DNA of 64,000 nt. It comes from a virus. The notes under the pieces were generated by a model, which worked only from the letters and a program-made list of their open reading frames with translations, searched no databases and was not told where the DNA came from. How positions within the stretch are numbered: position 1 is the stretch's first letter; every line of letters starts with the position of its first letter. Positions 24,609 through 64,000 of the stretch are shown here, in pieces. Both the position numbers and the translations under genes were made by a program. Where the stretch lies: positions 6,076 to 70,075 of the IMG/VR virus record IMGVR_UViG_3300019477_000133; one strand, 5' to 3'.

Positions 24609-24681
24609 TGTGACATGGAGAAGTGGCATCTCGGTGGCAAACTTATAGCTGCAGTCATTGGTTCGATTCCAATTGTCGCAA
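24609..24681 (+). tRNA. tRNA-like element, 73 nt: acceptor tgtgaca/tgtcgca, D-stem gaga/tctc, T-arm attgg-ttcgatt-ccaat, anticodon arm not foldable
   Basis: hand fold; likely a degenerate or non-canonical tRNA. Confidence 0.3.
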
Positions 24682-24711
24682 CATTTGAAAACCAATTTTA
24701 ATTTTTAAATA

Positions 24712-25764: not shown

Positions 25765-25800
25765 TACCGAATTAACTGATACTATTAGGTTGTAAAGATT

Positions 25801-25923
25801 ACTATAGTGAGAAGGATGTTATGATTTTATTCACTGCAATGAGATTTTCAGACTCTCACGTTAAATAATAAAATGATTCGAGACTGGAGAGTCTTGCGTA
25901 CTTTTAACTACTTCTCACATAGT
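25801..25923. repeat. long imperfect nested palindrome: outer actatagtgagaag/cttctcacatagt, inner cagactctc/gagagtct
   Basis: inverted repeats read directly downstream of the OmpA-like gene. Confidence 0.5.
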
Positions 25924-26091
25924 GGTCAATACAATTAAAGAAAATAACTATTGGTTACGTACAGCACGAAAAATTATAGTATTTATTTAACTTCCGATGT
26001 ACATAAGTTTTATAAACTTATTCAGTTTGAAATCGCTGTGATGATTTCCGTAACCTAATTTAGTTATTAAACTAAAAGAATAGAAAAAAAT

Positions 26092-26301
26092 ATGAGAATT
26101 GTTATTATCTTGTTGATTATTCTAATTTTTATATCATTTGGTATATTTATCAATGGTATAAGAAATTCTAAACTTAGAACGATACATAATGTTATGGAAG
26201 ATAACGAACATAATGATGAATTACGTAAACGTTCAAATCGTAGAAAAAAAGTTACTATCATAGAAGAGATGCCAGATAATAATGATAACACGGTGGAATA
26301 G
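26092..26301 (+). CDS. small membrane protein (doubtful); its 3' end overlaps tRNA-Arg
   Basis: 69-aa ORF with a hydrophobic N-terminus. Confidence 0.25.
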   Translation: MRIVIILLIILIFISFGIFINGIRNSKLRTIHNVMEDNEHNDELRKRSNRRKKVTIIEEMPDNNDNTVE

Positions 26302-26365
26302 CTCAACTGAATAGAGCAACGGCCTTCTAAGCCGTAGGTTGCGAGTTTGAATCTCGCTTCCATCA
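26292..26365 (+). tRNA. tRNA-Arg(TCT)
   Basis: acceptor ggtggaa/ttccatc, D gctc/gagc, anticodon stem acggc/gccgt with loop ctTCTaa, T-arm gcgag-tttgaat-ctcgc. Confidence 0.75.
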
Positions 26366-26384
26366 CATCATAACTCAATTTTTA

Positions 26385-26425
26385 CCACAAGTTAGATTTG
26401 TTTCTGCTTGTGGTGATTTTTTTTG
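26385..26425 (+). terminator. rho-independent terminator after tRNA-Arg
   Basis: ccacaag...cttgtgg hairpin plus a T9 run. Confidence 0.6.
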
Positions 26426-26442
26426 TATAAAACAATATGCAA

Positions 26443-26500
26443 TTATCAATAAATCCAATTAATCAATAAAAAAGATTGATATGTTGATAAAAAAATCAAC
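26443..26500 (+). promoter_or_regulatory. operator-like direct and inverted repeats (ATCAATAAA x2, TTGATA x2, ATCAAC) upstream of the HTH regulator gene
   Basis: aattATCAATAAAtccaattaATCAATAAAaaagaTTGATAtgTTGATAaaaaaATCAAc. Confidence 0.35.
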
Positions 26501-26534
26501 TTAAGATATATTTATTAATAAAAAAAATAAATAT

Positions 26535-26741
26535 ATGAACGGATTTGAAAATTGGATAAAAGATATATGTAAGAGAAAACGCATGAAATTAAAAGATGTA
26601 TCAACAAAGATGGGTGTTGAACCAGCTTCTTTAACAAGAACATTAAAAGGTGGAAACCCACGATTAGATACATTGGTAAAACTATCAGAAGCGTTAGAAG
26701 TAGAAATAACAGCTTTAATTCCACAGGAAATTAAGCCATAA
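26535..26741 (+). CDS. XRE/Cro-type helix-turn-helix transcriptional regulator
   Basis: KLKDVSTKMGVEPASLTRTLKGGNPRLDTLVKLSEAL is an HTH_3-like helix-turn-helix. Confidence 0.6.
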   Translation: MNGFENWIKDICKRKRMKLKDVSTKMGVEPASLTRTLKGGNPRLDTLVKLSEALEVEITALIPQEIKP

Positions 26742-27079
26742 TAAAAAAAATATTTATAAAATAAGTAACTTTTGATACATAGGTTATATTTATAATAAAA
26801 TTCATATAAAAAATGATACGTACATCAAATAAACAAAGTAATCAGCATAACATATTTGTTACATCCAACAAGTATGATAATGATGCTATGTTTTTTGAAT
26901 ACGACATAAATAATAATAATAATAATAGTATTTCAACAATACGGAATTTATATGAATGTATAACCTAAATTAAAAAGGGTTTTTGCACTTACTTCACTAA
27001 ATATATTTCCAAGCTGTTGAATAAACTTAAACAAAAGTTGATTTAGCAGCTTTTTTAGTACATTTACAATTAGACAATA

Positions 27080-27313
27080 ATGACAGTAGATAACCTTATA
27101 CCATTATTAAATGGTCATGCAGAATTAAGATGTGTCATAGAAAAGAAAATAGCTGAATACAAAATTATAGCTACTGATGGACACGAGTACTTAATAGATA
27201 TAGATATTAGTGACAAGAAAGATGTAAAACCTCAAAAATGCATAAAATGTGAATATATTAACGATTTACTAAGGAAAATCAACCAAAATAATGATTTTAT
27301 AAAAATAAAATAA
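27080..27313 (+). CDS. hypothetical protein
   Basis: 77-aa ORF. Confidence 0.3.
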   Translation: MTVDNLIPLLNGHAELRCVIEKKIAEYKIIATDGHEYLIDIDISDKKDVKPQKCIKCEYINDLLRKINQNNDFIKIK

Positions 27314-27323
27314 AAAAAATCAC

Positions 27324-27391
27324 TGAAAAATTTGGAGGTTTCAGAAAAAGTTAGTATCTTTGCATCACAATTAAGAAACAAGAGTTCTTTG
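27324..27391 (+). promoter_or_regulatory. second copy of the 68-nt promoter block, driving the tRNA cluster
   Basis: duplicate of 24394-24461 with 2 mismatches. Confidence 0.55.
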
Positions 27392-27409
27392 ACTTATTGG
27401 AACAACAGA

Positions 27410-27482
27410 TGCGCTCATAGCTCAGTTGGTAGAGCACCACACTTTTAATGTGGGAGTCTTGGGTTCGAGCCCCAATGGGCGT
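27410..27482 (+). tRNA. tRNA-Lys(TTT)
   Basis: acceptor gcgctca/tgggcgt (two G.U pairs), D gctc-agttggta-gagc, anticodon stem ccaca/tgtgg with loop ctTTTaa, T-arm ttggg-ttcgagc-cccaa. Confidence 0.8.
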
Positions 27483-27496
27483 ACAACTGAAAAAAA

Positions 27497-27649
27497 TAAT
27501 AGGTAGCCGTACTACCGAATTTACGCTTGTGGACTATCCTCCTATGGATGACTGATTGTAGCAATACAATGTACTAAAAAGTAATGATAGGTTGAAGCAA
27601 GAAGTGAAAAGTACCCAAATCATATATTTGCGTAGATTTTCATATACGG
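27497..27649 (+). ncRNA. orphan copy of the ~155-nt structured RNA found immediately 3' of tnpB (omegaRNA-like scaffold); no adjacent tnpB
   Basis: about 95% identical to 33871-34029 apart from an internal hairpin that differs with compensatory changes (attgtagcaatacaat versus attgagtagtaaactactcaat). Confidence 0.55.
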
Positions 27650-27853
27650 TCCTGAGTTCGAGTCCCAGTGGGCAACTCATACATTTACAAAAAGTAATAC
27701 CCATGCAAATGGTTTCTTGGCTAAGAATGATGCTAATTGTAATTTTAAACAAAACTAATTCAGTAATTGATAGAATTTAGTCGACATAAATTCTTGATAG
27801 CTACGTTGGTAACGTTACAACCAAATTATATCCTATTACATATAGGAGAATCA

Positions 27854-27927
27854 CAGTGCATTAGTTCAGTAGGTTAGAATACTGCCCTGTCACGGCATAG
27901 GTCACGGGTTCGAGTCCCGTATGCACT
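27854..27927 (+). tRNA. tRNA-Asp(GTC)
   Basis: acceptor agtgcat/atgcact, anticodon loop ctGTCac, T-arm acggg-ttcgagt-cccgt. Confidence 0.75.
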
Positions 27928-27936
27928 GCATAAAAT

Positions 27937-28031
27937 CTTCTGTGTGCTGTTATGGTATCAGACGTGCGAAAGCAGCATTGGTTTAATCCAAAAGAGCAGA
28001 GCGTTTAGTTGGTTCGAATCCAACCACAGAA
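27937..28031 (+). tRNA. atypical 95-nt tRNA-like RNA: perfect 7-bp acceptor ttctgtg/cacagaa and T-arm gttgg-ttcgaat-ccaac, with an abnormal anticodon/variable region carrying the motif aaaagagcag
   Basis: hand fold; anticodon unresolved; may contain an intron or insertion or be a tRNA-like ncRNA. Confidence 0.3.
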
Positions 28032-28044
28032 GATACTTACAACC

Positions 28045-28166
28045 ACCTCACTTAGCTCAGTTGGTTAGAGCGACGTTACCAAGAATTTTTCCTGTATGGA
28101 AAAGAGCAGCAAAGTTTAAATTTGATTTGTAATCCGTGTGTCATCGGTTCAAGTCCGATAGTGAGG
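28045..28166 (+). tRNA. atypical 122-nt tRNA-like RNA: acceptor cctcact/agtgagg (7/7), canonical D-arm gctc-agttggtta-gagc, T-arm atcgg-ttcaagt-ccgat, ~50 nt extra in the anticodon/variable region. Internal hairpin ttttc-ctGTAtg-gaaaa could be a Tyr anticodon arm. Shares the aaaagagcag...gttta motif with 27937-28031.
   Basis: hand fold. Confidence 0.3.
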
Positions 28167-28176
28167 TGGAATTTTA

Positions 28177-28248
28177 TTAGGGGATGGAGCAGAGGTAGCT
28201 TGCTGGGCTCATAACCCAGAGGTCGGGGGTTCGACTCCCTCTCCCCCA
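28177..28248 (+). tRNA. tRNA-Met/Ile2-type (CAT), copy 1
   Basis: anticodon stem ctggg/cccag with loop ctCATaa, T-arm ggggg-ttcgact-ccctc; one A.C mismatch in the acceptor stem. Confidence 0.65.
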
Positions 28249-28317
28249 ACAACTTAGGAAACAAACAGCAGATTTTCTCTTTTTTTATGGAATAAAAATA
28301 ATAATGTTTCCTTAACT

Positions 28318-28388
28318 TTGAGATATGGTGTAATGGTAACACTGTAGGTTTTGGTCCTGCCATTATAGGTTCGACTCCTATTGTCTCA
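28318..28388 (+). tRNA. tRNA-Gln(TTG)
   Basis: acceptor tgagata/tgtctca, D gtgt/acac, anticodon stem gtagg/cctgc with loop ttTTGgt, T-arm atagg-ttcgact-cctat. Confidence 0.75.
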
Positions 28389-28393
28389 ACAAA

Positions 28394-28467
28394 TGCTTTA
28401 GTAGCTCAGCTGGTTAGAGCACCTGACTGTTAATCAGGAAGTCGCAGGTTCGAGTCCTGCCTGAAGC
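28394..28467 (+). tRNA. tRNA-Asn(GTT)
   Basis: acceptor gctttag/ctgaagc, anticodon stem cctga/tcagg with loop ctGTTaa, T-arm gcagg-ttcgagt-cctgc. Confidence 0.8.
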
Positions 28468-28495
28468 GCATGGAAGTATCTTAAGAAGACTTTCA

Positions 28496-28539
28496 AGAGA
28501 GTGCCACCGAGTAATGCAAGCATAGGTGGACAACACTCT
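28496..28539 (+). other. nested hairpin (gagagtg-ccacc...ggtgg-cactctc) between tRNA genes; possible processing or structural element
   Basis: inverted repeats read directly. Confidence 0.3.
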
Positions 28540-28601
28540 CGTCCAAAGAAGTATGGTATTATGACATTATAAAATAGAGTATTACCTGAATCGCATAATT
28601 A

Positions 28602-28673
28602 TTGCAGGATAGAGCAGTGGTAGCTTGCTGGGCTCATAACCCAGAGGTCGGGGGTTCGACTCCCTCTCCTGCA
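28602..28673 (+). tRNA. tRNA-Met/Ile2-type (CAT), copy 2, with encoded CCA
   Basis: acceptor tgcagga/tcctgca, D gagc-agtggta-gctt, anticodon loop ctCATaa, T-arm ggggg-ttcgact-ccctc, followed by ACCA. Confidence 0.8.
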
Positions 28674-28680
28674 ACCATTC

Positions 28681-28767
28681 TGGAGAGTTGGCTGAGTGGC
28701 TTAAAGCGCTGGTCTTGAAAACCAGAGGACAGTAAAATGTTCCAAGAGTTCGAATCTCTTACTCTCC
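28681..28767 (+). tRNA. tRNA-Ser(TGA)
   Basis: acceptor ggagagt/actctcc, anticodon stem ctggt/accag with loop ctTGAaa, long variable arm, T-arm aagag-ttcgaat-ctctt. Confidence 0.8.
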
Positions 28768-28775
28768 TCTTATAT

Positions 28776-28867
28776 TGGAGATTTAAGCCTAATTGGTAAG
28801 GCAGCAGTTTGCTAAACTGCCAGTAATCGTAGTAATATGGTGTATAGGTTCGAATCCTATAATCTCC
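28776..28867 (+). tRNA. tRNA-Ser(GCT)
   Basis: acceptor ggagatt/aatctcc, anticodon stem gcagt/actgc with loop ttGCTaa, long variable arm, T-arm atagg-ttcgaat-cctat. Confidence 0.75.
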
Positions 28868-29294
28868 GCATTTGCGATTTTTGAATGGAATAATAGAAAA
28901 ACAAAAATGAAGTATGGATTTTGTACCTAAATGGTTTTATTGAGGGATTTTCCCCACATACATTTTTTAGAATAAGGAAATATTTTAGTTTTTCGAAAGA
29001 TTCTATTTTAGAAAAGATTGTATTATTAATTTAAAGAGTAAGTTATGAAAAAGAATTATGTAACACCAGAGGTGGAAATTTACACGGCTTTAGTGGAGCA
29101 GCCATTTATGAGTTTATCTACAGTTAAATTTGGTGACGTGACAAATGGTGGAGAAAATACTGACGAGAACGGTGTACTGCCATCAGATACTCCTACAGAC
29201 GATGAGTGGGGTGAAATTGGTTGGGACTAATTACAACAACTATCGAGAGTATTAATTATCAAGCGTAACAAATTAAAAATGAATAATATAAAAA

Positions 29295-31175
29295 ATGAAT
29301 AAACTAATAGTAAAATCAATGCTACTTATTATAGTAGCAGTACCTATGCTGGTATCATGTAGTTCAGATGATATTGTTGACCACGTGCAATCGGTTGAAC
29401 AGCAAAGTAATGTAACAACTATTTATGTGCACACTCCGCAGAAGCCAGAGACTCGTGCTACGGTAGTGGGTGCTTATGATGTGCCTAATGTAGTAAACAG
29501 CACGTATCCAACATCAGGCAAAATAACAAGTTATAAGTACATTTGGTCCGTTGGCGACAAGCTTTATACGTATGACCCAATCAACGATTTTGTCAGCACA
29601 TTTATATGTAAGTCAGTTGATGGCGATGCAGGAGCTACATTTATTTCTACAAATGCTAAGTGGACTACAGGCAGTAAAATCTACCTGTTTGCATCAAGAG
29701 AGGAGCCTACAGTGATTAACCATAATGAGGTGAATTTCAATTATATCAATCCAGCTAACGCAGGCTTTGCATGGGGAGATGCTGACAAGAACACGGCAGT
29801 GCTTACCAATACAAACTTTACAGGTGTAGGCGAGATAGAAAAGTGCCCAGAACTTGCTAATAATGGTACTCCTGTAAGAATGGAATGTACACTTGATGTT
29901 ACGCCATCTATGACAATGTACTTCCGTGATATGATGCATGATTATCAGAGCGTTTCATTGACACAAAGTGTAAAGAAAGGTGCATACGATGGTTATTATG
30001 ACGGTGCAACATACAACTTGCTTACTAAGAAGTACACTCCAGGCATGCTTCGAAACACATGGCTTACTCTATCAAATAAGAATCCAGATAGTTTCGGCAA
30101 AGGAGTGATTTATATGCCTTTGGCTGAAACGAAGTACGACAAAGTAACTATCTCTCTTATTGGTAAAAACAAGAACATAGAGGGTGATGAGACTACAGTA
30201 CGCAGCATCAATATAAAGAAGAATTTTGATGCAACTGCACAGAGTAACTATTACAACCTCGGCGATATGGCTAAATGGCCTAAGGATGCAGACCATCTAT
30301 ACATCATTGGTGACGCAACACCTTTTGGATGGGCACAGTCTACTTCAAAAACTGATAATAGTACACGTATTTGGCCTTTTACTCAGAAGATGAAGAATGA
30401 AGGAAATGGCGTATTTACATATATTGGTCCAGCTTTAGGTTCTAATGCGCCAACACAAATGTACCAACCATTGGATACAATACATCGGAATATAAGTAGT
30501 GGCAATGGAACATTTAAGTTCTACTTCTTCAATAACGGTCTTTATGAGTGTGCAGGTCTTCTGCGTGATACAGGCAATGAAACTGATAATGTGACTACTG
30601 CTTACTATTCTACTTATGATAATGCAAAACGTTATGCAGATTCTAAGTGGAAAGTAAATGAAGCTAAGGTTCATAAGATTACGGTTAACGTGCGTACTAA
30701 TAAGGTGACAGTAGAACCTTACACAGGTGCACCACTGCCTGAACTGAAGATTACAAAACAAGATGGTGCTAAGGTAACTATCAATAAACTTTGGTTGTTC
30801 GGTTCAGCAACTCCTGATAATGTTAACTATATTTCTACCAGACCCCTCGCATTTAATTATAATGCAGTAGACGACCCAAATCACTTTGTATGGGAAGGCT
30901 ATTTGAAAGCTGGTTATGTTAAGTTTCCCTATATCTTTGGTGATTACGATTTTCATCAGTCAAGTTATTTGATGCCTATAGACGGTAATACTACAGCCCC
31001 ACTTACAGTTGGTGTGTTTTATGTACATCCAGCTTCTATTATAGATGGCACCCCTATGAAAATGAAAGTCGGGGTAGATGGAGGTCATGATAATCAGTGG
31101 AAAATAACTACTCCTGGTAAATACAGAATAGTTGTAGACGTAAATAAAATGGAAGTTACTTTTATAAAGAAGTAA
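29295..31175 (+). CDS. large surface lipoprotein (lipobox LVSCSS)
   Basis: signal peptide plus Cys: MNKLIVKSMLLIIVAVPMLVSCSSDD; 626 aa; locally higher GC than the phage average. Confidence 0.6.
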   Translation: MNKLIVKSMLLIIVAVPMLVSCSSDDIVDHVQSVEQQSNVTTIYVHTPQKPETRATVVGAYDVPNVVNSTYPTSGKITSYKYIWSVGDKLYTYDPINDFVSTFICKSVDGDAGATFISTNAKWTTGSKIYLFASREEPTVINHNEVNFNYINPANAGFAWGDADKNTAVLTNTNFTGVGEIEKCPELANNGTPVRMECTLDVTPSMTMYFRDMMHDYQSVSLTQSVKKGAYDGYYDGATYNLLTKKYTPGMLRNTWLTLSNKNPDSFGKGVIYMPLAETKYDKVTISLIGKNKNIEGDETTVRSINIKKNFDATAQSNYYNLGDMAKWPKDADHLYIIGDATPFGWAQSTSKTDNSTRIWPFTQKMKNEGNGVFTYIGPALGSNAPTQMYQPLDTIHRNISSGNGTFKFYFFNNGLYECAGLLRDTGNETDNVTTAYYSTYDNAKRYADSKWKVNEAKVHKITVNVRTNKVTVEPYTGAPLPELKITKQDGAKVTINKLWLFGSATPDNVNYISTRPLAFNYNAVDDPNHFVWEGYLKAGYVKFPYIFGDYDFHQSSYLMPIDGNTTAPLTVGVFYVHPASIIDGTPMKMKVGVDGGHDNQWKITTPGKYRIVVDVNKMEVTFIKK

Positions 31176-31187
31176 GTATGCTTAACA

Positions 31188-31216
31188 AAGGGGAATTTAA
31201 TATAGTTCCCCTTTTA
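31188..31216 (+). terminator. rho-independent terminator
   Basis: aggggaa...ttcccct hairpin plus TTTT. Confidence 0.55.
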
Positions 31217-31217
31217 A

Positions 31218-31291
31218 GGACTTGTAGCTCAGTTGGTCAGAGCAGCAGTCTCATAAACTGAAGGTCCCTGGTTCAAGCCCAGGCTGGTCCA
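31218..31291 (+). tRNA. tRNA with a CAT anticodon (third copy; Ile2-lysidine- or Met-type)
   Basis: D gctc-agttggtca-gagc, anticodon loop ctCATaa, T-arm cctgg-ttcaagc-ccagg; one mismatch each in the acceptor and anticodon stems. Confidence 0.6.
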
Positions 31292-31309
31292 CTTAAAAAA
31301 ATCAGTAAT

Positions 31310-31570
31310 ATGATAGAAATGATATTATGTTTATTACTTGGAATTATTATTGGAATCATACTTTTTCCAATTGGAATATTTTTAAGAGCAAAAAATTCAG
31401 GTTGGGATGACAGTAATGTTTTTAATATTTTTCATGTATTATTTCATTTGGCTTTGCATCCAGATGATTTCACTAAGATGTATTACAAGAATGGTAGTAA
31501 ACCATTCTGGTATCTGACGAAAGATGAGTTCTCAGAAGTTTTAAGAATAAGACCAACTTCAGAAGAATAG
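31310..31570 (+). CDS. small membrane protein
   Basis: 86-aa ORF with a hydrophobic N-terminus. Confidence 0.3.
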   Translation: MIEMILCLLLGIIIGIILFPIGIFLRAKNSGWDDSNVFNIFHVLFHLALHPDDFTKMYYKNGSKPFWYLTKDEFSEVLRIRPTSEE

Positions 31571-31594
31571 ATATTAATTTAAATCAAAGCATAT

Positions 31595-32422
31595 ATGAAG
31601 AAAATTGTTACGTTTATTGCTACTGCAATCTTTGCTGTAACAGCATTAACAAGCTGTTCATTTACAAACCCATCATACGATGAAGAAGTAGCTTTAAAGA
31701 TGAAGCCATGGTTTGTTGGTAGTACTGGTGTAGACCCTACCCCTGTTAATGACTTAACATGTATTGCATGGACAACATCAGCTGTGAGTTTCTATATTCT
31801 TCCTCAAAAGGTGGAGTTCAAATTCGATGACTTGCTTTCAAACGACAACACACCTTTGGATGTAAGCATGTATATGGTCTTGCAGGTTCAGAAAGGTCAT
31901 ACTCCTGAATTGTTACAAAACTATGGTGAAGACTGGTATAAGACATTCATTGAACCATATTTCAAGAATAAGGTACGTGAATACGTTTCTACATGTTCTC
32001 CATTTGATTTGATGAGTAATCGTGAAGTACTTATTCAACTTGACACTGAAATTGCTAAGTCAATGAGAATTTATATTCAGCAACTTTCAAAGACAAGAGG
32101 TAACTTCCCTGTTACTATTCAGCAGGTTACTACAGATAGGGTAATGCCTAACAAGGAACAACTTGATGAAATGAACAAGACAGCTGCTGCTATTCAAGCA
32201 AAGCAGACACAGGAGAAGAAAGCTGAAATGGAGTTAGCAAGAGCCAAAGCTGAAAAGAATAAGGCTATTGCAGATAAGGCTTATATGAACGAATTGGCAC
32301 TTTCTCCGCAGCAGTTTATTCAACTTCGTGTATGGGACGTTATCGCAAGTAAGCAGGGTGCTAATATTGATGTACTTGTTGGTTCTGGAGAAACTCCCAT
32401 GTGGAATATTAAACAGAAATGA
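31595..32422 (+). CDS. lipoprotein with a C-terminal coiled-coil (possibly SPFH/band-7-like)
   Basis: MKKIVTFIATAIFAVTALTSCSF lipobox. Confidence 0.5.
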   Translation: MKKIVTFIATAIFAVTALTSCSFTNPSYDEEVALKMKPWFVGSTGVDPTPVNDLTCIAWTTSAVSFYILPQKVEFKFDDLLSNDNTPLDVSMYMVLQVQKGHTPELLQNYGEDWYKTFIEPYFKNKVREYVSTCSPFDLMSNREVLIQLDTEIAKSMRIYIQQLSKTRGNFPVTIQQVTTDRVMPNKEQLDEMNKTAAAIQAKQTQEKKAEMELARAKAEKNKAIADKAYMNELALSPQQFIQLRVWDVIASKQGANIDVLVGSGETPMWNIKQK

Positions 32423-32439
32423 TAATTAAATAATTAATA

Positions 32440-32512
32440 GCTGAATGAGCACGATTGGTTGTGCAACTGATTTGTAATCAGTAGGCTGTGGGTTCGAGTC
32501 CCACATTCAGCT
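32440..32512 (+). tRNA. tRNA-Thr(TGT)
   Basis: acceptor gctgaat/attcagc, D gcac/gtgc, anticodon stem actga/tcagt with loop ttTGTaa, T-arm gtggg-ttcgagt-cccac. Confidence 0.8.
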
Positions 32513-32517
32513 CATAT

Positions 32518-32590
32518 TGAGTAGTAGCTCAGGTGGTAGAGCGATGGTTTGAAGGTCCATGCGTCGGTGGTTCGAATCCACCCTATTCAA
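32518..32590 (+). tRNA. tRNA-Phe(GAA)
   Basis: acceptor tgagtag/ctattca, anticodon stem atggt/tccat with loop ttGAAgg, T-arm ggtgg-ttcgaat-ccacc. Confidence 0.8.
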
Positions 32591-32615
32591 CTAAACATAT
32601 GAAAATATGATATTT

Positions 32616-32688
32616 AGCCCCATCGACAAGCGGTTTAAGTCGCCACTCTTTCACGGTGGAGTCACGAGTTCGAATCTCGTTGGGGTTA
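32616..32688 (+). tRNA. tRNA-Glu(TTC), copy A
   Basis: acceptor agcccca/tggggtt, anticodon stem ccact/ggtgg with loop ctTTCac, T-arm acgag-ttcgaat-ctcgt. Confidence 0.7.
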
Positions 32689-32716
32689 CTAACAATTCTA
32701 AAAAAAAATAATAAAA

Positions 32717-33859
32717 ATGTTAAGAGGGATTAAGATAAGATTATATCCAAACAATACACAAGAGCAGGTACTCAATAAGGTGCTTGGGTGTTACCGTTTT
32801 GTTTATAACCAAATGCTTGCTCGAAAACAGAATGCTTATAAAACAGATAAAACAAACTTATCTGTTACCGATTTATCAAAATGGTTTCATGGAACATTGT
32901 TAAAGGATGAACAATATGCTTGGCTGAAAGAACAGAACACGAAGGTGATGAAACAAGCAATCAGACAAATGGATGGTGCTTACCAAAACTTCTTCAAACA
33001 ACATAATGGTTTTCCAAAATTTAAAACAAAGAAGGATAAACAATCGGCATTATTCCCATATGAAGCCATTTCCAAAAAGAATACATTTGAAACCAAACAT
33101 ATCAGTTTGACAACCTCATTAAAGAATATTAAGTTCCGTTGTTCAGATTTGTATTTCAGAAGATTACAAAAGTATAATAAGAATATAAGAAGTGCTACCT
33201 TATCGAAGACCAAGAGTGGTAATTTCTTCTTATCTATCCTTGTTGAATTGGATGATACTGAATTAAAGAAATTTGAACATACAAACAAGCAAGTTGGTAT
33301 TGACCTTGGAGTCAAAGATTTTGTAATCACGTCTGATGGTGAGGTATTTGATAACAAACATTTTTTCAAAGAGAAAGAGAAAGAAGTAAGGATGCTTCAA
33401 AGACAATTGTCAAGAAAAGTTAAAGGTTCTAACAATTGGAATAAGCAACGTGTTAGAATTGCAAAAGCATTTGAAAGACTTACCAACCAAAAGGAAGCCT
33501 ATATACATAGTGTTGTGAATGAGTTATTAACTTATTATGACACTGTATTTATGGAAGACTTGAATGTGAAAGGAATGCTAAAAAATCATCATCTTGCCAA
33601 AGCTATACAAGAGGTTAGTTTCTATAAGTTCAAGGAAATATTGTTTAGCAAGTCACTTGTTAACGATAAAAGTGTTGTGTTTATTGAAAGATTCTATCCA
33701 TCAAGCAAGACTTGCTCACAATGCGGTTATAAGAAACGAGACTTGAAGTTAAGTGATAGATTTTGGATTTGCCCTGAATGTGGGACAAAACATGACAGAT
33801 ATGTTAATGCTGCCATAAACATATTGTTGGAAGGTCAACGAATACTGGCAGCGGTGTAA
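32717..33859 (+). CDS. tnpB: TnpB (OMEGA RNA-guided nuclease, IS200/IS605 OrfB family), catalytic motifs intact
   Basis: N-terminus IKIRLYPNNTQEQ; RuvC-I VGIDLGVKD; RuvC-II VFMEDLNVKGM; zinc finger CSQCG...CPECG; RuvC-III HDRYVNAAINIL. Confidence 0.85.
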   Translation: MLRGIKIRLYPNNTQEQVLNKVLGCYRFVYNQMLARKQNAYKTDKTNLSVTDLSKWFHGTLLKDEQYAWLKEQNTKVMKQAIRQMDGAYQNFFKQHNGFPKFKTKKDKQSALFPYEAISKKNTFETKHISLTTSLKNIKFRCSDLYFRRLQKYNKNIRSATLSKTKSGNFFLSILVELDDTELKKFEHTNKQVGIDLGVKDFVITSDGEVFDNKHFFKEKEKEVRMLQRQLSRKVKGSNNWNKQRVRIAKAFERLTNQKEAYIHSVVNELLTYYDTVFMEDLNVKGMLKNHHLAKAIQEVSFYKFKEILFSKSLVNDKSVVFIERFYPSSKTCSQCGYKKRDLKLSDRFWICPECGTKHDRYVNAAINILLEGQRILAAV

Positions 33860-33870
33860 TAAAAGAAATA

Positions 33871-34029
33871 ATTAGGTAGCCGTACTACCGAATTTACGCT
33901 TGTGGACTATCCTCCTATGGATGACTGATTGAGTAGTAAACTACTCAATGTACTAAAAAGTAGTGATAGGTTGAAGCAAGAAGTGAAAAGTACCTAAATC
34001 ATAGATTTGCGTAGATTTTCATATACGGT
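33871..34029 (+). ncRNA. candidate omegaRNA (right-end RNA) scaffold of TnpB; begins 11 nt after the tnpB stop codon
   Basis: conserved with 27497-27649 including a covarying hairpin; the position matches where IS605 omegaRNAs are encoded. Confidence 0.55.
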
Positions 34030-34065
34030 GTGACGGTTCGATTCCTTTCGTTCGCTCATTTTCAT

Positions 34066-34137
34066 AGCGCCATCGACAAGTGGTTAAGTCGCTAGCCTTT
34101 CACGCTGGAGTCACGGGTTCGAATCCCGTTGGCGTTA
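34066..34137 (+). tRNA. tRNA-Glu(TTC), copy B (diverged from copy A)
   Basis: acceptor agcgcca/tggcgtt, anticodon stem ctagc/gctgg with loop ctTTCac, T-arm acggg-ttcgaat-cccgt. Confidence 0.7.
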
Positions 34138-34272
34138 CTAATTTGAATGTTGTTCCAATAAGCAAAAAATATATATTCAACAAAATATTATGGATACAAG
34201 TTTTATCACTATTATTATTTGTATTATTGTTGGAATTTTATCAGCAAATTATCTTAAAAATAGTTTTAAAGA

Positions 34273-42900: not shown

Positions 42901-43881
42901 ATGGAAGATTTAGTTACAAAGCAACTTAGGAAACGTTTCCTCAAGGATTTTAATCTACCTATCCAAGTAATACAAGACCCTTACTTTACAGAGCGTCTTG
43001 AACTATGCGGTGCTACTCAAGATTATAATAATCTTCTTGAATACATCGACACCAATTATAGTGGTAGTTATAGAGCATTCTTAGATGCTTATGCACAAAT
43101 AAGAGATGAAATTGTTACTTCATGTTACAACTCAGAAGCGTTTAAACTGTTCAACAACAGTGACATTAAAGGTGAAAATCCATTGATTCCACAACGGAAC
43201 TTGTATACTGAAGAACAAGATGGAAATAGTTTTGTAAGCGTTGATTTAAAGAAAGCAAACTTTCAAGCACTTAAATATGTTAATTCCGAAATAGTCCTTA
43301 ATACTGATACATATGAAGGATTTATAGGAAAGTTCACGGATAGTGAATATATTAAGAAGTCAAAATATACAAGACAAGTTATCTTTGGAAAACTTAATCC
43401 GAAAAAGACAATTAGTATAGAGAAACGTATTATTAATAAAATTTATAAGACGCTTAATGATAAGTTCAATCTGACTGAATATTTAGAACCATATTCTATG
43501 TGTACAGATGAAATTATCTACAAAGTGAAAGATAACAATAATAACGTATTGACAGATTTGCTGTGTGATAAATCTTTAATGATGATGGAACAAATTATTA
43601 AAGACACACTCGGGTTTGAAGTACGCATTAATTATTTCGGTCTTAAGTTACATCAATTCAAGCTTGCTACATCGGAAGCAAAAGTCAATTCTTTCACTAA
43701 ATTGAATCATGTAACAAATGAGGTGTCTTATGCGTGTATTCCATCTACATACTATCCACAGATTTACAAATTAATTAATGGTTTAGATGTAACTAAGAAT
43801 GACCTTGTTTTTTATTATGAACATGAGTTGGCGACATTCTTAAACCCATTGGTAAAATTAAATAAAGATAATGAAATTTAA
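42901..43881 (+). CDS. hypothetical protein
   Basis: 326-aa ORF after the promoter acctttgcaacat. Confidence 0.5.
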   Translation: MEDLVTKQLRKRFLKDFNLPIQVIQDPYFTERLELCGATQDYNNLLEYIDTNYSGSYRAFLDAYAQIRDEIVTSCYNSEAFKLFNNSDIKGENPLIPQRNLYTEEQDGNSFVSVDLKKANFQALKYVNSEIVLNTDTYEGFIGKFTDSEYIKKSKYTRQVIFGKLNPKKTISIEKRIINKIYKTLNDKFNLTEYLEPYSMCTDEIIYKVKDNNNNVLTDLLCDKSLMMMEQIIKDTLGFEVRINYFGLKLHQFKLATSEAKVNSFTKLNHVTNEVSYACIPSTYYPQIYKLINGLDVTKNDLVFYYEHELATFLNPLVKLNKDNEI

Positions 43882-45172
43882 AATCAAAGATAAAAAGATA
43901 GAAAAAACCATCCATACAATACGTGCACTTATCAAAGGAACCAAATTTGAAGGTGTTACGTATGTTGTAGGTGGTTTTGTACGTGATACGTTAATGGGAG
44001 AAGTATCTAATGATTTAGACATTGTTGTTAATCTCCCGTCTGGTGGAATAGATTTAGCGAATACTTTAACAGAGTTGGATAATAGTCATAGTGACTCTAA
44101 TCCTATTGTATATCCTAAGTATGGTACCGCAAGCTTTCATTTAAAGAATAATGATGAATATTCTGATGTTGTTATTGAGTCTGTGGAAACACGGAAAGAA
44201 CAATATCATTCAGAATCACGTAATCCAGAAACATGTTTTGGAACTTTAGAAGAAGATGCATTTAGAAGAGACCTTACAATTAACGCATTGTATTACAATA
44301 TCTCAACAGATAAAGTAGAAGATGTTACTGGAAAAGGACTTGATGATTTGAAAAATCATGTTATCAGAACTACAAATGATAACCCTAACATAGTTTTCTT
44401 TGATGACCCATTGCGTATAATGAGAGTTATCAGATTTGCAAATAGATATGGCTGGAATATAGAAGAGAAGACGTGGAAATCATTGCAAGAATGTGCTTCA
44501 AGAATAAAGATTATTTCTAAAGAAAGAATACGTAATGAGTTGAATAAGATAATTGCCAATAAAGACTGTATAAATGGTTTGAATTATTTAAAAGATAGTG
44601 GTATTTTATCTTATATTCTTCCCGAACTATTTGAACAATGTTTTGTTCCATGTTCACAGGACTTTAATAGTATGTTTGATAAAATAGTTACAATATGTAG
44701 TCAAGCACCTATATGTTTATATACTCGTCTTTCAATTCTATTATCATTTTGCAAAACAGATAGCGCATGTGAAACTATTCTATCTCATCAAAAGCAACCG
44801 AATGTAATAATAAAGCATGTGCAGAATGCACTGTTAGGTAAAAACTTCAGAAGAGAAGACGAAGAATTAGAAGTATCTTTACGTAGATTATATAAGAAAT
44901 GTAACCAAAATATAGATAATGCATTATGGGTGTATCGAGTTTTTACAGATGAAGAAACTTATAACGAAACGGTAAATACGTGGCTAAAGATAAAAGATAG
45001 TGCTAAAATTTATCTTCCGATAGATGGAAATGAAATCTTCTCATATCGTGCAGATATTACAAATAATGACAGAAAATTATTAATTGATTATCTACACGAA
45101 GAACAATGCAAAAATCCTTTCTTAACAAAAGAAGAATGTGTTGAATTAATTAAACAATATCAGTTACATTAA
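43871..45172 (+). CDS. cca: tRNA nucleotidyltransferase (CCA-adding enzyme) / poly(A) polymerase family
   Basis: head-domain motif YVVGGFVRDTLMG...NDLDIVV (GGxVRD ... DxD); FRRDLTINALYY matches motif RRDxTINA. Confidence 0.7.
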   Translation: MKFKIKDKKIEKTIHTIRALIKGTKFEGVTYVVGGFVRDTLMGEVSNDLDIVVNLPSGGIDLANTLTELDNSHSDSNPIVYPKYGTASFHLKNNDEYSDVVIESVETRKEQYHSESRNPETCFGTLEEDAFRRDLTINALYYNISTDKVEDVTGKGLDDLKNHVIRTTNDNPNIVFFDDPLRIMRVIRFANRYGWNIEEKTWKSLQECASRIKIISKERIRNELNKIIANKDCINGLNYLKDSGILSYILPELFEQCFVPCSQDFNSMFDKIVTICSQAPICLYTRLSILLSFCKTDSACETILSHQKQPNVIIKHVQNALLGKNFRREDEELEVSLRRLYKKCNQNIDNALWVYRVFTDEETYNETVNTWLKIKDSAKIYLPIDGNEIFSYRADITNNDRKLLIDYLHEEQCKNPFLTKEECVELIKQYQLH

Positions 45173-57179: not shown

Positions 57180-57204
57180 ATCTTTGCAATGTTAATTTAA
57201 AACA
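57180..57204 (+). promoter_or_regulatory. promoter; exact duplicate of the 4719-4743 25-mer, with a -7 TAnnTTTG box
   Basis: gtatctttgcaatgttaatttaaaa. Confidence 0.5.
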
Positions 57205-57212
57205 TAAATAAA

Positions 57213-58344: not shown

Positions 58345-58347
58345 TGT

Positions 58348-58878: not shown

Positions 58879-59005
58879 AAATATATAATAATCCACTAAT
58901 ATTTTGGTGGATTATTTTTGTTTTATATATTTTAACTAAATTTATTTTGTAGTATCCAATTCTTTTCTTAACTTTGCAAATATAATAATCAAATAAAAAT
59001 AAATT

Positions 59006-61153
59006 ATGCGTACTTTACTAATTCTTAGAGGTTGTATGGGCAGTGGTAAGTCTACTTTCATTAAGGAAAATGGTCTTACTGATTACACATTGTCAGCCGA
59101 TGATATACGTTTAATGTTTCATTCTCCAAAGATGAATGAAGAGGGCGATATGACTATTAGCGCACGTTCCGATAAAATGGTATGGGATACATTGCATACT
59201 ATGCTTGAGAACCGTATGCGTAATGGTGATTTCACTGTTATTGATGCTACACATAAGACATCTAAGGCTGTATCTAAGTATGTAGAATTAGCTGACAAGT
59301 ATCGCTATAATTGTTATCAGCATAATGTCGAGGCAACCTTGGATGAATGTTTGGAACGTAATTTGTTACGTGACCCAGTAAGACGTGTTCCAGACATTGA
59401 TATTCGTCGTGCATACAATATGCTTCAAGAAAATAAGTTGTCTAATCGTTTCAAGGAAGTTAATGATGTAGATGACATTCTCAATTATTACATTACCGAT
59501 GCTTCTGCATACAAGGAAGTAAAGATTATAGGTGATGTACATGGTTGTCACACATGCCTTTTAGAAGCTATTGGTGGCTCTTTAAACCCAGACGTGTTAT
59601 ATGTATTCGTTGGTGATTATTTCGACCGTGGTATCGAAAATAAAGAAGTGTATGAGTTCCTATTGTCACATTATAATGATGACAACGTGGTCCTTCTTGA
59701 AGGAAATCACGAGAAGCATATCTGGCGTTTGATTAACGGTGAGGAGATAACTTCAGAATACTTCAAGATGACACTTGATGAGATAACCAAGGTTTATCCA
59801 TTGGAACAGGTTCGTAAGGAGTTAAAGAAAATTTACTATCGTATGCGTCAGTGTTTTGCATTCACATACCGTGGTAAGAAATACTTGGTAACACATGGTG
59901 GACTTACATCTGTTCCAAATCTTACAACTATTCCAACAAACGACATGATTAAGGGTGTTGGGGGATATGATATGGAAGTAGATAAGATATATGAAGATAA
60001 TTATTTGCTTGGGAAGTGTCAGGACTTTATACAAGTACATGGTCATCGCAATACTCTTTCTACCGAACATTCAATTTGTCTTGAAGATTGTGTTGAATTT
60101 GGCGGTAACTTAAAGGTTTTCTCTATAACACCAGAATATGCTTCTATATTAAAATACGAAAATAAAGTGTTTAGTATAGATAATATGAATGCTTTTCAGC
60201 AAGTAGTATATAAGGTTGATGACCCAGAAGTTAAGAAGATAATGAATAGTCGTCTTGTTAATGTAAAGGGTTGTAAGCATAACATGTACTCTATCAACTT
60301 TAATCGTAATGCATTTATTGGAAAGAAATGGAACTTTGCTACTATCAAGGCACGTGGTTTATTTGTTGATAAGAATACAGGAGAAGTAAAGATGCGTTCT
60401 TATGATAAGTTCTTTAATATTGATGAACATAAGACAACTAAGAGAAATAAACTTGAAGAAACTCTTAAGTTCCCAGTAAAAGTAACGATAAAGGAGAATG
60501 GATATCTTGGAATTATGTCAGTAGTAGACAATCAGTTAGTATTTGCTTCCAAAACAACTGACAGTGGTCCTTTTGCTGAACGTTTTGAACGTATTTTTAA
60601 CGAAACTGTTAGTAAGCACGATAAAGACCTATTGAAGAATATCCTGAAGAAAGAGAATGCTTCGGCTGTGTTTGAAGTGATTAGTCCTACAGAAGACCCA
60701 CATATTATTAGATATGAAAAGGAAGAAGTGGTATTGCTGGACATTATCCATAATGTGCTTAACCTTGGTGAAAACTATACAGAAGAGTCAGATAAGTTCA
60801 AGAATTTCTTAAGAGAAAATACATCTTTGAGAATGCCAGACGAATTAGTTATTAATACTAATGATGAGTTATGGGAATACCTACGGACTAATATAGGAAC
60901 TAATGATTCCGTAGAAGGTGTTGTAGTCACAGATGCTACTGGATTCAAGTTTAAAGTAAAGTTCAATTACTATCTAATGGTGAAGAACCTTAGACGTATT
61001 ACTCAGATATTCAGAAAGTGTAAGCGTGATGGTACGCCATTTAACGAAAAAATATGTCGTAATGATATGGAAAAGAATTTCGTTAATTTCCTTGAAAAAG
61101 AAGATGATGGAGAAATGAGTATCATTGATTTATATGATAAATTTCAAAAATAA
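59006..61153 (+). CDS. pnkP: polynucleotide kinase-phosphatase with a C-terminal nucleotidyltransferase (ligase-like) domain (bacterial Pnkp-like RNA repair enzyme)
   Basis: P-loop LILRGCMGSGKSTF; calcineurin-like phosphoesterase motifs GDVHGC / GDYFDRG / GNHE; ligase motif I-like KVTIKENGYLG. Confidence 0.65.
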   Translation: MRTLLILRGCMGSGKSTFIKENGLTDYTLSADDIRLMFHSPKMNEEGDMTISARSDKMVWDTLHTMLENRMRNGDFTVIDATHKTSKAVSKYVELADKYRYNCYQHNVEATLDECLERNLLRDPVRRVPDIDIRRAYNMLQENKLSNRFKEVNDVDDILNYYITDASAYKEVKIIGDVHGCHTCLLEAIGGSLNPDVLYVFVGDYFDRGIENKEVYEFLLSHYNDDNVVLLEGNHEKHIWRLINGEEITSEYFKMTLDEITKVYPLEQVRKELKKIYYRMRQCFAFTYRGKKYLVTHGGLTSVPNLTTIPTNDMIKGVGGYDMEVDKIYEDNYLLGKCQDFIQVHGHRNTLSTEHSICLEDCVEFGGNLKVFSITPEYASILKYENKVFSIDNMNAFQQVVYKVDDPEVKKIMNSRLVNVKGCKHNMYSINFNRNAFIGKKWNFATIKARGLFVDKNTGEVKMRSYDKFFNIDEHKTTKRNKLEETLKFPVKVTIKENGYLGIMSVVDNQLVFASKTTDSGPFAERFERIFNETVSKHDKDLLKNILKKENASAVFEVISPTEDPHIIRYEKEEVVLLDIIHNVLNLGENYTEESDKFKNFLRENTSLRMPDELVINTNDELWEYLRTNIGTNDSVEGVVVTDATGFKFKVKFNYYLMVKNLRRITQIFRKCKRDGTPFNEKICRNDMEKNFVNFLEKEDDGEMSIIDLYDKFQK

Positions 61154-62305: not shown

Positions 62306-62310
62306 AGTAT

Positions 62311-62652: not shown

Positions 62653-62653
62653 T

Positions 62654-63977: not shown

Positions 63978-64000
63978 ATTTTAATTTACACTAATATGGA

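What the first reader, a model, noticed from the sequence alone, without database searches (positions are those of the whole stretch)
59006..61153. Pnkp-like tri-functional RNA repair enzyme (kinase-phosphatase-ligase) alongside a CCA-adding enzyme and a tRNA set matching anticodon-nuclease targets
The N-terminal P-loop kinase (GSGKST), the central calcineurin-type phosphoesterase (GDVHGC, GDYFDRG, GNHE) and the C-terminal nucleotidyltransferase motif (KENG) reproduce the domain order of bacterial Pnkp, which heals 2',3'-cyclic-phosphate/5'-OH RNA breaks. The phage also carries a CCA-adding enzyme (43871-45172). Its tRNAs include Lys(TTT), Glu(TTC), Gln(TTG), Asp(GTC) and Asn(GTT), the isoacceptors targeted by PrrC, RloC, zymocin-like and colicin E5/D-type anticodon nucleases. 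Together these indicate a tRNA-centred anti-defence strategy of repair plus replacement. No Hen1 methyltransferase partner is visible in the window.
Basis: partly seen in the sequence, partly recalled or inferred. Interest (0 to 1): 0.7.

Follow-up and report, generated by a model that had tools for sequence, protein, structure and literature searches.

The report
Phage three-in-one RNA repair enzyme
One phage protein carries all three activities needed to mend a cut RNA (probably tRNA): a bacterial-type end-healing half joined to a ligase whose closest solved relative is the fungal tRNA-splicing ligase, in a family that is common in phages but that I found no biochemical test of.

The parts
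59006..61153 (+). Whole gene: 715-aa trifunctional RNA heal-and-seal enzyme (kinase, metallophosphoesterase, ligase)
   Evidence: ORF; three Pfam domains; PHROG 8238 matched over the full length, 1e-188; the identical protein is present in four independent metagenome assemblies
59006..59485 (+). Polynucleotide 5'-kinase module (residues 1-160). P-loop GSGKST at 59039-59056 (K15, S16); SADDIR at 59093-59110 (general-base D32, R35); RNLLRD at 59357-59374 (R118, R122)
59498..60187 (+). Binuclear metallophosphoesterase module (residues ~165-394). GDVHGC 59531-59548 (D177, H179); GDYFDRG 59612-59632 (D204, R208); GNHE 59702-59713 (N234, H235); THGG 59891-59902 (H297); HGHR 60038-60049 (H345, H347)
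60203..60964 (+). ATP-dependent RNA ligase adenylyltransferase domain (residues 400-653). Motif I KENG 60491-60502 (K496 nucleophile, N498); Ia ASK 60545-60553 (K516); III FEVIS 60671-60685 (E557); EDPHII 60692-60709 (H566); IV EGVVV 60914-60928; V FKVK 60950-60961 (K650, K652)
   Evidence: Pfam PF09511 1.1e-35; profile alignment to Trl1-LIG and T4 Rnl1; model pLDDT 95.4; K496, K516, E557, H566, E637, K650 and K652 are invariant in 157/157 relatives
60965..61150 (+). All-helical ligase C-domain (residues 654-715), homologous to the Rnl6-defining C-domain of fungal Trl1-LIG. It carries K660 and R663 (within 60968-60997) and the terminal SIIDLYDKF helix (61118-61144)
43871..45172 (+). Class II tRNA nucleotidyltransferase (probable CCA-adding enzyme)
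   Evidence: Pfam PolyA_pol plus PolyA_pol_RNAbd; best NCBIfam hits are CCA tRNA nucleotidyltransferases, all below curated cut-offs
24609..34138 (+). tRNA island with 15 tRNA genes (a 16th, Leu-TAA, lies at 8547-8633), interrupted by a TnpB gene
   Evidence: ARAGORN; Rfam; at least 14 of 16 lack an encoded CCA; relation to codon usage
17205..18857 (+). Possible further RNA-maintenance factor: DUF2828/DUF7788 protein, PHROG 850 'RNA-binding protein' (may be Ro/TROVE-like; not established here)
   Evidence: Pfam DUF7788 4.9e-20 and a weak DUF2828 hit; PHROG 850 5e-57; no Y RNA found by Rfam

Best explanation
The gene encodes a self-contained heal-and-seal RNA repair enzyme with a chimeric make-up: a bacterial Pnkp-type healing cassette fused to a Trl1/Rnl1-type ATP-dependent RNA ligase. 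[quoted passage not shown] (1) The N-terminal P-loop kinase phosphorylates the 5'-OH (K15/S16 bind NTP, D32 is the general base). (2) The binuclear metallophosphoesterase opens the cyclic phosphate. By analogy with CthPnkp it cleaves the P-O3' bond to give 3'-OH,2'-PO4. Because H179 and R208 are retained, it probably then removes the 2'-PO4. (3) The ligase is adenylylated on K496, transfers AMP to the 5'-PO4, and joins it to the 3'-OH. No Hen1 partner is needed, because the ligase is not the Rnl4 type. The three active sites and their homologies are shown by the analyses here. The RNA substrate (tRNA anticodon loops), the order of steps and the product chemistry are inferred. I commit to the T4-like outcome (2'-OH ends sealed, ordinary phosphodiester) as somewhat more likely for this His-bearing protein, at about 55-60%. 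The yeast-like outcome is a serious alternative and is listed below.
Against: No activity has been measured for any member of this family in the literature I could search. The Burroughs and Aravind 2016 survey of RNA repair systems was not available. The target RNA is inferred. The strict conservation of a Trl1-type 2'-PO4 pocket (H566 157/157, R663 155/157, K660 153/157) is hard to explain if only 2'-OH ends are sealed. 27 of 119 relatives carry Gln at the monoesterase-essential histidine. The relative arrangement of the domains is not predicted with confidence (full-length pTM 0.53). At the sequence level the phosphoesterase matches PP1, PP2A and lambda-Pase better than the solved CthPnkp phosphatase.
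Confidence: 0.8

Rival explanations
1. Yeast-type chemistry in a phage. The phosphoesterase acts mainly as a cyclic phosphodiesterase and gives a 3'-OH,2'-PO4 end. The Trl1-like ligase recognises that 2'-PO4 through H566, K660 and R663 and seals it, leaving a 2'-PO4 at the junction. That phosphate is later removed by a host or phage Tpt1/KptA using NAD+, or by the enzyme's own monoesterase.
For: The ligase shares with Trl1-LIG the C-domain and the residues shown by mutagenesis to enforce 2'-PO4 specificity: Cth H227A is 420-fold slower, R334A 120-fold, R337A 60-fold (PMC11404444; PMC6379707). These residues are as invariant as the catalytic residues across 157 relatives. T4 Rnl1, which does not ligate 2'-P ends (PMC12440814), has Ile165 (Arg164 adjacent), His250 and Lys253 at these positions and lacks the C-domain. 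The CthPnkp-type cyclic phosphodiesterase cleaves P-O3' to give a 2'-phosphate, and His189 is needed only for the following monoesterase step (PMC2190708; PMC1920235). 27 of 119 relatives have Gln there.
Against: The window protein, Twort ORF008 and Goe11_c00950 all keep the histidine and the R237-equivalent arginine. No Tpt1 lies in the window or within 10 kb of five homologues. Phage-encoded KptA (98 records) is absent from Staphylococcus and Fusobacterium phages. R334 is Lys here, not Arg. Plant Trl1 lacks both arginines yet is strictly 2'-P dependent, and Cth LIG shows a preference rather than an absolute requirement, so the triad is not a reliable predictor. In CthPnkp, H189Q also lowers cyclic phosphodiesterase activity.
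Confidence: 0.4
2. One reading: a member of the bacterial Pnkp family whose ligase works like CthPnkp's (Rnl4), with a Hen1 partner lying outside the window.
For: The domain order is the same as in Pnkp. The kinase and phosphatase are the closest structural relatives of the CthPnkp domains. TIGR04075 is the top NCBIfam hit.
Confidence: 0.03
3. The tRNA genes and the CCA enzyme are not an anti-anticodon-nuclease 'replacement' arm. They supply decoding capacity for an AT-rich (31% GC) phage genome, and the nucleotidyltransferase matures phage tRNAs that lack an encoded CCA.
For: The phage tRNAs decode the four most-used codons and 54.7% of all codons, against 37.7 +/- 5.7% for random sets (P about 0.001). 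Only 1-2 of 16 tRNA genes encode a 3' CCA. The set also includes tRNAs the finding does not list as nuclease targets: three Met, two Ser, Thr, Phe and Leu.
Against: The two explanations do not exclude each other. Phage tRNAs have been shown to evade tRNA-targeting defences (PMC10264068, listed). A repair enzyme in the same genome shows that tRNA or RNA damage is a selective pressure. The host and its codon usage are unknown.
Confidence: 0.5
4. The protein is not an RNA repair enzyme. It could be a protein Ser/Thr phosphatase/kinase (NinI or lambda-Pase-like), a DNA end-processing enzyme, or a T4-Rnl1-like tail-fibre attachment factor.
For: At the sequence level the phosphoesterase matches PP1, PP2A and lambda-Pase and PHROG 246 'NinI-like phosphatase'. 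PHROG 562 carries T4 Rnl1's second annotation.
Against: The three domains are fused in 113 of 157 relatives, with all polynucleotide-kinase and ligase catalytic residues invariant. The structurally closest phosphoesterase is the RNA 2',3'-phosphatase of CthPnkp. The kinase is closest to RNA and polynucleotide kinases.
Confidence: 0.05

Closest known systems
Clostridium thermocellum Pnkp (bacterial Pnkp-Hen1 RNA repair system)
Fungal tRNA ligase Trl1, ligase domain (Rnl6 clade)
   Different: Domain order and healing modules differ. Trl1 is LIG-KIN-CPD with a 2H cyclic phosphodiesterase; here the order is KIN, metallophosphoesterase, LIG. The C-domain is shorter (3 predicted helices over ~62 aa, against 5 over ~79 aa). 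R334 is replaced by Lys. No Tpt1 partner was found. Dependence on 2'-PO4 is untested.
Phage T4 Pnkp plus Rnl1 (the classic anti-PrrC tRNA repair pair)
   Different: T4 uses two proteins. Its 3'-phosphatase is of the HAD/DxDxT type, not a metallophosphoesterase (PMC3592404 abstract). Rnl1's tRNA-binding C-domain is not shared, as the alignments stop at about residue 256. T4 lacks the His566 equivalent.
Baculovirus AcNPV Pnkp/Rnl trifunctional enzyme (from my own knowledge: Martins and Shuman 2004; not checked here)
   Same: [quoted passage not shown]
   Different: As I recall, its ligase is N-terminal and Rnl2-like and its phosphatase is HAD-type, so both the order and the module families differ. 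This comparison rests on memory only.
PHROG 8238 and its homologues in sequenced phages (Staphylococcus phage Twort ORF008, Bacillus phage Goe11_c00950, Fusobacterium phage Fnu1/phiKSUM 'RNA ligase')
   Same: The same family and the same three-domain architecture: full-length PHROG match 1e-188, and 112 phage records covering at least 80% of the query at 35-43% identity. The catalytic residues and the triad are conserved.
   Different: These are annotated only as 'RNA ligase', 'metallophosphoesterase' or 'hypothetical protein', and I found no functional study. The window protein is at most 43% identical to any cultured-phage member. Its near relatives (72-98%) are metagenomic, on contigs of about 325-341 kb.

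Membership tests
Bacterial Pnkp (TIGR04075, Pnkp-Hen1 system) | N-terminal P-loop polynucleotide 5'-kinase with a general-base Asp and an Arg | tested here: met
Bacterial Pnkp (TIGR04075, Pnkp-Hen1 system) | Central binuclear metallophosphoesterase with the 2',3'-phosphatase active-site residues | tested here: met
Bacterial Pnkp (TIGR04075, Pnkp-Hen1 system) | C-terminal Rnl4-type ligase domain | tested here: not met
Bacterial Pnkp (TIGR04075, Pnkp-Hen1 system) | Whole-protein score above the curated cut-off (750 bits) | tested here: not met
   87.2 bits.
Bacterial Pnkp (TIGR04075, Pnkp-Hen1 system) | Adjacent Hen1 methyltransferase partner | tested here: not met
   No Hen1 or methyltransferase partner next to the gene in the window or within 10 kb of homologues in five other contexts. 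The rest of the ~340 kb genome was not visible.
[quoted passage not shown] | Adenylyltransferase domain with motifs I, Ia, III, IV and V and the Rnl1-like N-subdomain ATP contacts | tested here: met
   K496, K516, E557, E637/G638, K650/K652 and R450, K468, F469 align to Cth K148, K169, E218, E300/G301, K323/K325 and R99, K120, F121. They are conserved in 155-157 of 157 relatives.
[quoted passage not shown] | The distinctive all-helical C-domain that defines the clade | tested here: met
[quoted passage not shown] | His-Arg-Arg triad that enforces 2'-PO4 end specificity (Cth H227, R334, R337) | tested here: inconclusive
   The aligned residues are H566, K660 and R663: His and the second Arg are identical, and the first Arg is Lys. 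They are near-invariant. The T4 Rnl1 control has I165, H250 and K253. Plant Trl1 lacks both arginines, so the triad is not universal among 2'-P-dependent ligases.
[quoted passage not shown] | Biochemical requirement or strong preference for a 3'-OH,2'-PO4 end | not testable with these tools
   Needs ligation kinetics on pRNA-2'PO4 against pRNA-2'OH.
Fungal/plant trifunctional Trl1 (LIG-KIN-CPD) | 2H-type cyclic phosphodiesterase and LIG-KIN-CPD domain order, with a Tpt1 partner in the pathway | tested here: not met
T4 Rnl1 family (sensu stricto) | Rnl1-specific C-terminal tRNA-binding domain | tested here: not met
   hhalign stops at T4 residue 256 and the HMM alignment at about 259. Only 242-243 residues superpose.
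CCA-adding enzyme (class II tRNA nucleotidyltransferase), ORF 43871-45172 | PolyA_pol head domain plus RNA-binding domain, and a score above the curated equivalog cut-off | tested here: inconclusive
   Both Pfam domains are above their cut-offs. All NCBIfam CCA and PcnB equivalogs score below theirs (best 147.5 against 438.8 bits). Class II membership is therefore secure, but CCA-adding as opposed to A-adding or poly(A) specificity is inferred.

The most novel reading that the evidence does not exclude
This abundant phage and bacterial family is the prokaryotic counterpart, and possibly the ancestor, of the eukaryal tRNA-splicing ligase, and it works by yeast-type chemistry. The Pnkp-type phosphoesterase stops at, or passes through, a 3'-OH,2'-PO4 end. 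The ligase reads that 2'-phosphate through His566, Lys660 and Arg663 and leaves a 2'-PO4 junction. This would be the first known prokaryotic pathway that produces the substrate of Tpt1/KptA. That enzyme is widespread in bacteria, which are stated to lack a yeast-like splicing pathway, and its functions there are described as partly unknown (PMC10946435). The roughly 23% of family members with Gln at the monoesterase-essential histidine would be natural equivalents of the engineered CthPnkp-H189D, which makes ends that only yeast ligase can seal.
Probability: 0.35. Interest if true: 0.85.

Novelty: new variant of a known kind. Interest (0 to 1): 0.55.

Why it matters
RNA heal-and-seal repair is known in three main forms: T4 Pnkp plus Rnl1, bacterial Pnkp-Hen1, and fungal/plant Trl1 plus Tpt1. 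This protein mixes two of them, with Pnkp's healing cassette wired to a Trl1-type ligase, and it does so in a family with hundreds of divergent lineages in phages and in Fusobacterium chromosomes. The papers on Trl1-LIG that I read present its C-domain and 2'-phosphate triad as features of fungal enzymes and as antifungal drug targets, and they do not mention prokaryotic or viral relatives. If the ligase reads a 2'-phosphate, it would give bacterial Tpt1/KptA a substrate source and would bear on where the eukaryal tRNA ligase came from. If it does not, the family shows that the 'specificity' pocket has another role, which matters for inhibitor design. In either case, tractable members (Twort in Staphylococcus, SPbeta-like Goe11 in Bacillus subtilis) make the question directly testable. 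For phage biology, it is a compact one-gene counter to RNA-cleaving defences.

Tried and rejected
(1) Near-identity DNA search of window 50000-64000 against 50,697 phage records found nothing, so the phage has no close sequenced relative. (2) Co-occurrence of phage-encoded Tpt1/KptA with the fusion: KptA is found in 98 phage records (Erwinia, Dickeya, Klebsiella, Serratia, Clostridioides) but in no Staphylococcus or Fusobacterium phage. In phiCD211, kptA is not next to any RNA ligase. This gave no support for an obligatory phage Tpt1 partner. (3) Conserved gene neighbourhood: none in the window phage, three divergent metagenomic lineages, Twort, Goe11 or the Fusobacterium chromosome. There was only a faint Macro hit 4 kb away in one lineage. 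(4) Six-frame KptA search of the window and all fetched loci gave only chance hits, E > 3. (5) Rfam scan for a Y-RNA-like partner of the PHROG 850 RNA-binding protein found only tRNAs. (6) The Burroughs and Aravind 2016 RNA-repair survey, which may already catalogue this architecture, is not in the library, so prior description cannot be excluded. (7) Sequence-only comparison of the phosphoesterase with the PDB ranked PP1, PP2A and lambda-Pase above CthPnkp. Only the structural comparison showed CthPnkp as closest. (8) I considered reading the triad as a clean discriminator and rejected that, because T4 Rnl1 has His and Lys at two of the three positions and plant Trl1 lacks both arginines.
Full report
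OBSERVATION. Every quoted motif is present at the expected place. Pfam reports three domains above their gathering scores, in the stated order: AAA_33 (residues 4-126), Metallophos (172-351) and RNA_lig_T4_1 (448-656, 1.1e-35). The identical protein occurs in four independent metagenome assemblies, so it is not an assembly artefact. One caveat applies. The string KENG occurs twice, at residues 20-23 and 496-499. The alignment, not the string, identifies K496 as the ligase nucleophile. The neighbouring claims also hold. ORF 43871-45172 is a class II tRNA nucleotidyltransferase. The window has 16 tRNA genes, including all five named isoacceptors. No Hen1 is visible.

Sequence evidence agrees for the kinase. 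Only CthPnk is found at E = 4e-10, with K15, S16, D32 and R35 aligned on Cth K21, S22, D38 and R41. For the phosphoesterase, sequence search alone ranks PP1, PP2A and lambda-Pase higher. The module is therefore best described as a lambda-phosphatase-class binuclear metallophosphoesterase whose closest solved structure is CthPnkp's. All residues reported as essential in CthPnkp (D187, H189, D233, R237, N263, H264, H323, H376; PMC3675462) have counterparts: D177, H179, D204, R208, N234, H235, H297 and H345/H347.

THE 2'-PHOSPHATE SITE. In Chaetomium Trl1-LIG, a sulfate taken to mimic the RNA 2'-PO4 is held by N150, H227, R334 and R337. The mutations H227A, R334A and R337A slow RNA adenylylation 420-, 120- and 60-fold (PMC11404444). 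In the profile alignment these residues correspond to N498, H566, K660 and R663 of the window protein. I aligned 157 divergent family representatives (50%-identity cluster representatives, plus hits) to the family HMM. H566 is present in 157/157, R663 in 155/157, and K660 in 153/157 (Arg in three more). That is as conserved as the catalytic K496, E557, E637, K650 and K652.

The control is informative but not clean. T4 Rnl1, which does not ligate 2'-P ends (PMC12440814), has Ile165 (Arg164 adjacent), His250 and Lys253 at these positions. The histidine is therefore the real discriminator. Two further cautions come from the same paper. Fungal LIG shows a strong preference for 2'-P rather than an absolute requirement. 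Plant Trl1 lacks both arginines even though it depends strictly on 2'-P. The triad suggests 2'-phosphate recognition but does not prove it.

WHAT THE HEALING MODULE SHOULD PRODUCE. The CthPnkp cyclic phosphodiesterase cleaves the P-O3' bond, giving a 2'-phosphate. His189 and Arg237 are needed only for the subsequent phosphomonoesterase step. H189D yields 3'-OH,2'-PO4 ends, which yeast ligase can seal but T4 Rnl1 cannot (PMC2190708; PMC1920235; PMC3675462). A Pnkp-type healing module therefore passes through the very end structure that Trl1-type ligases prefer. The window protein, Twort ORF008 and Goe11_c00950 retain both residues, which predicts complete dephosphorylation. However, 27 of 119 relatives have Gln at the His189 position, two have Asn and one has Glu. 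By analogy with CthPnkp those proteins should lack the monoesterase, although in CthPnkp H189Q also lowers diesterase activity.

IS THERE A Tpt1? A yeast-type pathway needs the junction 2'-PO4 to be removed. I found no Tpt1/KptA among about 50 window ORFs scanned with Pfam, and none in six-frame searches with verified E. coli and phiCD211 KptA sequences. None lies within 10 kb of homologues in three divergent metagenomic lineages or on a Fusobacterium chromosome, nor in the annotated flanks of Twort and Goe11. Phage-encoded KptA exists in 98 records but not in Staphylococcus or Fusobacterium phages, which are the main cultured carriers of the fusion. The window is about 64 kb of a genome that is probably ~340 kb (relatives' contigs), and hosts were not examined, so this is evidence against an obligatory partner but does not exclude one.

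MOST LIKELY MECHANISM. [quoted passage not shown] The kinase makes the 5'-PO4, the metallophosphoesterase opens and probably clears the 3' end, and the ligase seals through K496-AMP. The three intact active sites, their homologies, and the joint conservation of the architecture (113 of 157 representatives carry all three domains; 38 are ligase-only) are shown. The substrate, the order of events and the junction chemistry are inferred. For this His-bearing protein I put the T4-like outcome at roughly 55-60% and the yeast-like outcome at 35-40%. The near-absolute conservation of the Trl1-type pocket is the main observation that the T4-like reading leaves unexplained.

THE WIDER 'REPAIR PLUS REPLACEMENT' CLAIM. 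The components are real, but the argument is weaker than stated. The window is 31.1% GC. The four most-used codons in its ORFs are AAT, AAA, GAA and GAT, which are Asn, Lys, Glu and Asp, the very isoacceptors cited as nuclease targets. The tRNA set decodes 54.7% of all codons, against 37.7 +/- 5.7% for random codon sets of equal size (P about 0.001). Codon supply and nuclease evasion cannot be separated here. Only one or two of the 16 tRNA genes encode a 3' CCA, so the nucleotidyltransferase may be needed simply to mature the phage's tRNAs. In favour of an RNA-maintenance theme, the window also encodes a PHROG 850 'RNA-binding protein' (DUF2828/DUF7788). This may be the Ro/TROVE-type factor that the jumbo-phage survey associates with RNA repair (PMC7824862).

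HOW NEW IS IT? The family is not new to databases. PHROG 8238 ('RNA ligase') matches over the full length at 1e-188. 112 sequenced phages encode a protein covering at least 80% of the query at 35-43% identity, including Twort-like, SPbeta-like and Fusobacterium phages. An exhaustive search with the ligase domain finds 424 clusters at E <= 1e-30. In Fusobacterium animalis the gene sits among housekeeping genes rather than in a prophage. Comparative-genomics surveys note that jumbo phages combine Rnl1-type ligases with kinases and, in a small number of cases, calcineurin-like phosphatases, and that some use KptA (PMC7824862; PMC9503650).

What I did not find in the searchable literature is any biochemical study of this fusion, or any statement that prokaryotic or viral ligases share the Trl1-LIG C-domain and 2'-phosphate triad. 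The Trl1 papers I read treat these as features of fungal enzymes and do not mention prokaryotic or viral relatives. I therefore class the finding as a new variant of a known kind: a catalogued but, as far as I could find, uncharacterised hybrid of the Pnkp and Trl1 repair systems. The window gene itself is a new and fairly divergent member of that family.

VERDICT. Interest is moderate (0.55). The gene is ordinary in being a member of a common phage family with an easily predicted general role. The specific make-up of its ligase, however, raises a sharp and cheaply testable question about 2'-phosphate-dependent RNA ligation outside eukaryotes.

Noticed in passing
window 18918-19805, 35352-35915, 38113-38727, 45181-45747, 45968-47149: A complete Preiss-Handler-type NAD+ route is encoded, scattered across the window: nicotinamidase PncA-like (45181), NAPRTase PncB (45968, 1e-42), nicotinate-nucleotide adenylyltransferase NadD-like (35352; TIGR00482 103 bits against a cut-off of 112) and NAD synthase NadE (18918, 2e-43), plus a NUDIX hydrolase (38113). 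It is probably a counter to NAD+-depleting defences. It would also replenish NAD+ used by a Tpt1-type step, but that link is speculative. A distant relative's locus (L010) also has an NAPRTase near its ligase gene.
   Followed up: partly
family-wide; e.g. P0030 residue ~179 (GDIQGC), L010:10001-12154: 27 of 119 family members have Gln (2 have Asn, 1 has Glu) in place of the metal-ligand histidine equivalent to CthPnkp His189. That residue decides whether healing stops at a 2'-PO4. These may be natural diesterase-only variants.
   Followed up: partly
window 32717-33859: A TnpB/OrfB_IS605 gene (HTH, OrfB and Cas12f-like TNB domains) lies inside the tRNA island, between two diverged tRNA-Glu(TTC) paralogues (32616-32689 and 34066-34138). 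The paralogues are about 90% identical and differ by compensatory stem changes, so both look functional.
   Followed up: partly
window 17205-18857: A 550-aa DUF2828/DUF7788 protein matches PHROG 850 'RNA-binding protein' (5e-57). It may be a Ro/TROVE-like RNA quality-control factor. Rfam found no Y-RNA-like partner.
   Followed up: partly
L013:10001-12681 (Fusobacterium animalis CP084134.1): The bacterial homologue sits in a chromosomal housekeeping context (purA upstream) rather than in a prophage. It is immediately followed by a 2-thiouracil-desulfurase-family gene (PF04463). Whether that neighbour relates to s2U34-containing tRNAs is unknown.
   Followed up: no
window 24609-24682: tRNA-Lys(CTT) is called by ARAGORN but does not reach the Rfam tRNA gathering score (15 of 16 confirmed).
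   Followed up: no
window 8547-34138 (all tRNA genes): Only the tRNA-Met at 28603-28677 clearly ends in an encoded CCA. At least 14 of 16 tRNA genes need post-transcriptional CCA addition.
   Followed up: yes
window 15627-16526, 7068-7742, 5916-6806, 21278-22483: Other notable genes: a sigma-70-family factor, a ClpP protease (2.5e-55), a Mom-family protein (a possible DNA modification enzyme) and a TelA-like protein. TelA also lies near the ligase gene in the 341-kb relative (L007).
   Followed up: no
window 62654-63634: A 326-aa protein with a CxxxCxxC-like motif (CPMRCMFCDC) gives a weak radical-SAM hit (0.009) and a strong match to PHROG 24834 of unknown function (1e-91). It is conserved downstream of the ligase gene in all four metagenomic copies.
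   Followed up: no
window 57213-58004: The ORF three genes upstream of the ligase matches PHROG 10081, annotated 'transposase' (3e-76), but has no meaningful Pfam hit.
   Followed up: no
L010:6756-6908: A distant relative's phage contig encodes an ArfA-like ribosome-rescue factor 3 kb upstream of its heal-and-seal gene, which is another translation-rescue function in the same neighbourhood.
   Followed up: no
L012:4001-6199 (Bacillus phage Goe11, MT601272.1): The annotated CDS Goe11_c00950 starts at locus position 4037, which cuts off the N-terminal strand and part of the kinase P-loop. The tblastn match begins at 4001, so the deposited start codon is probably too far downstream.
   Followed up: no
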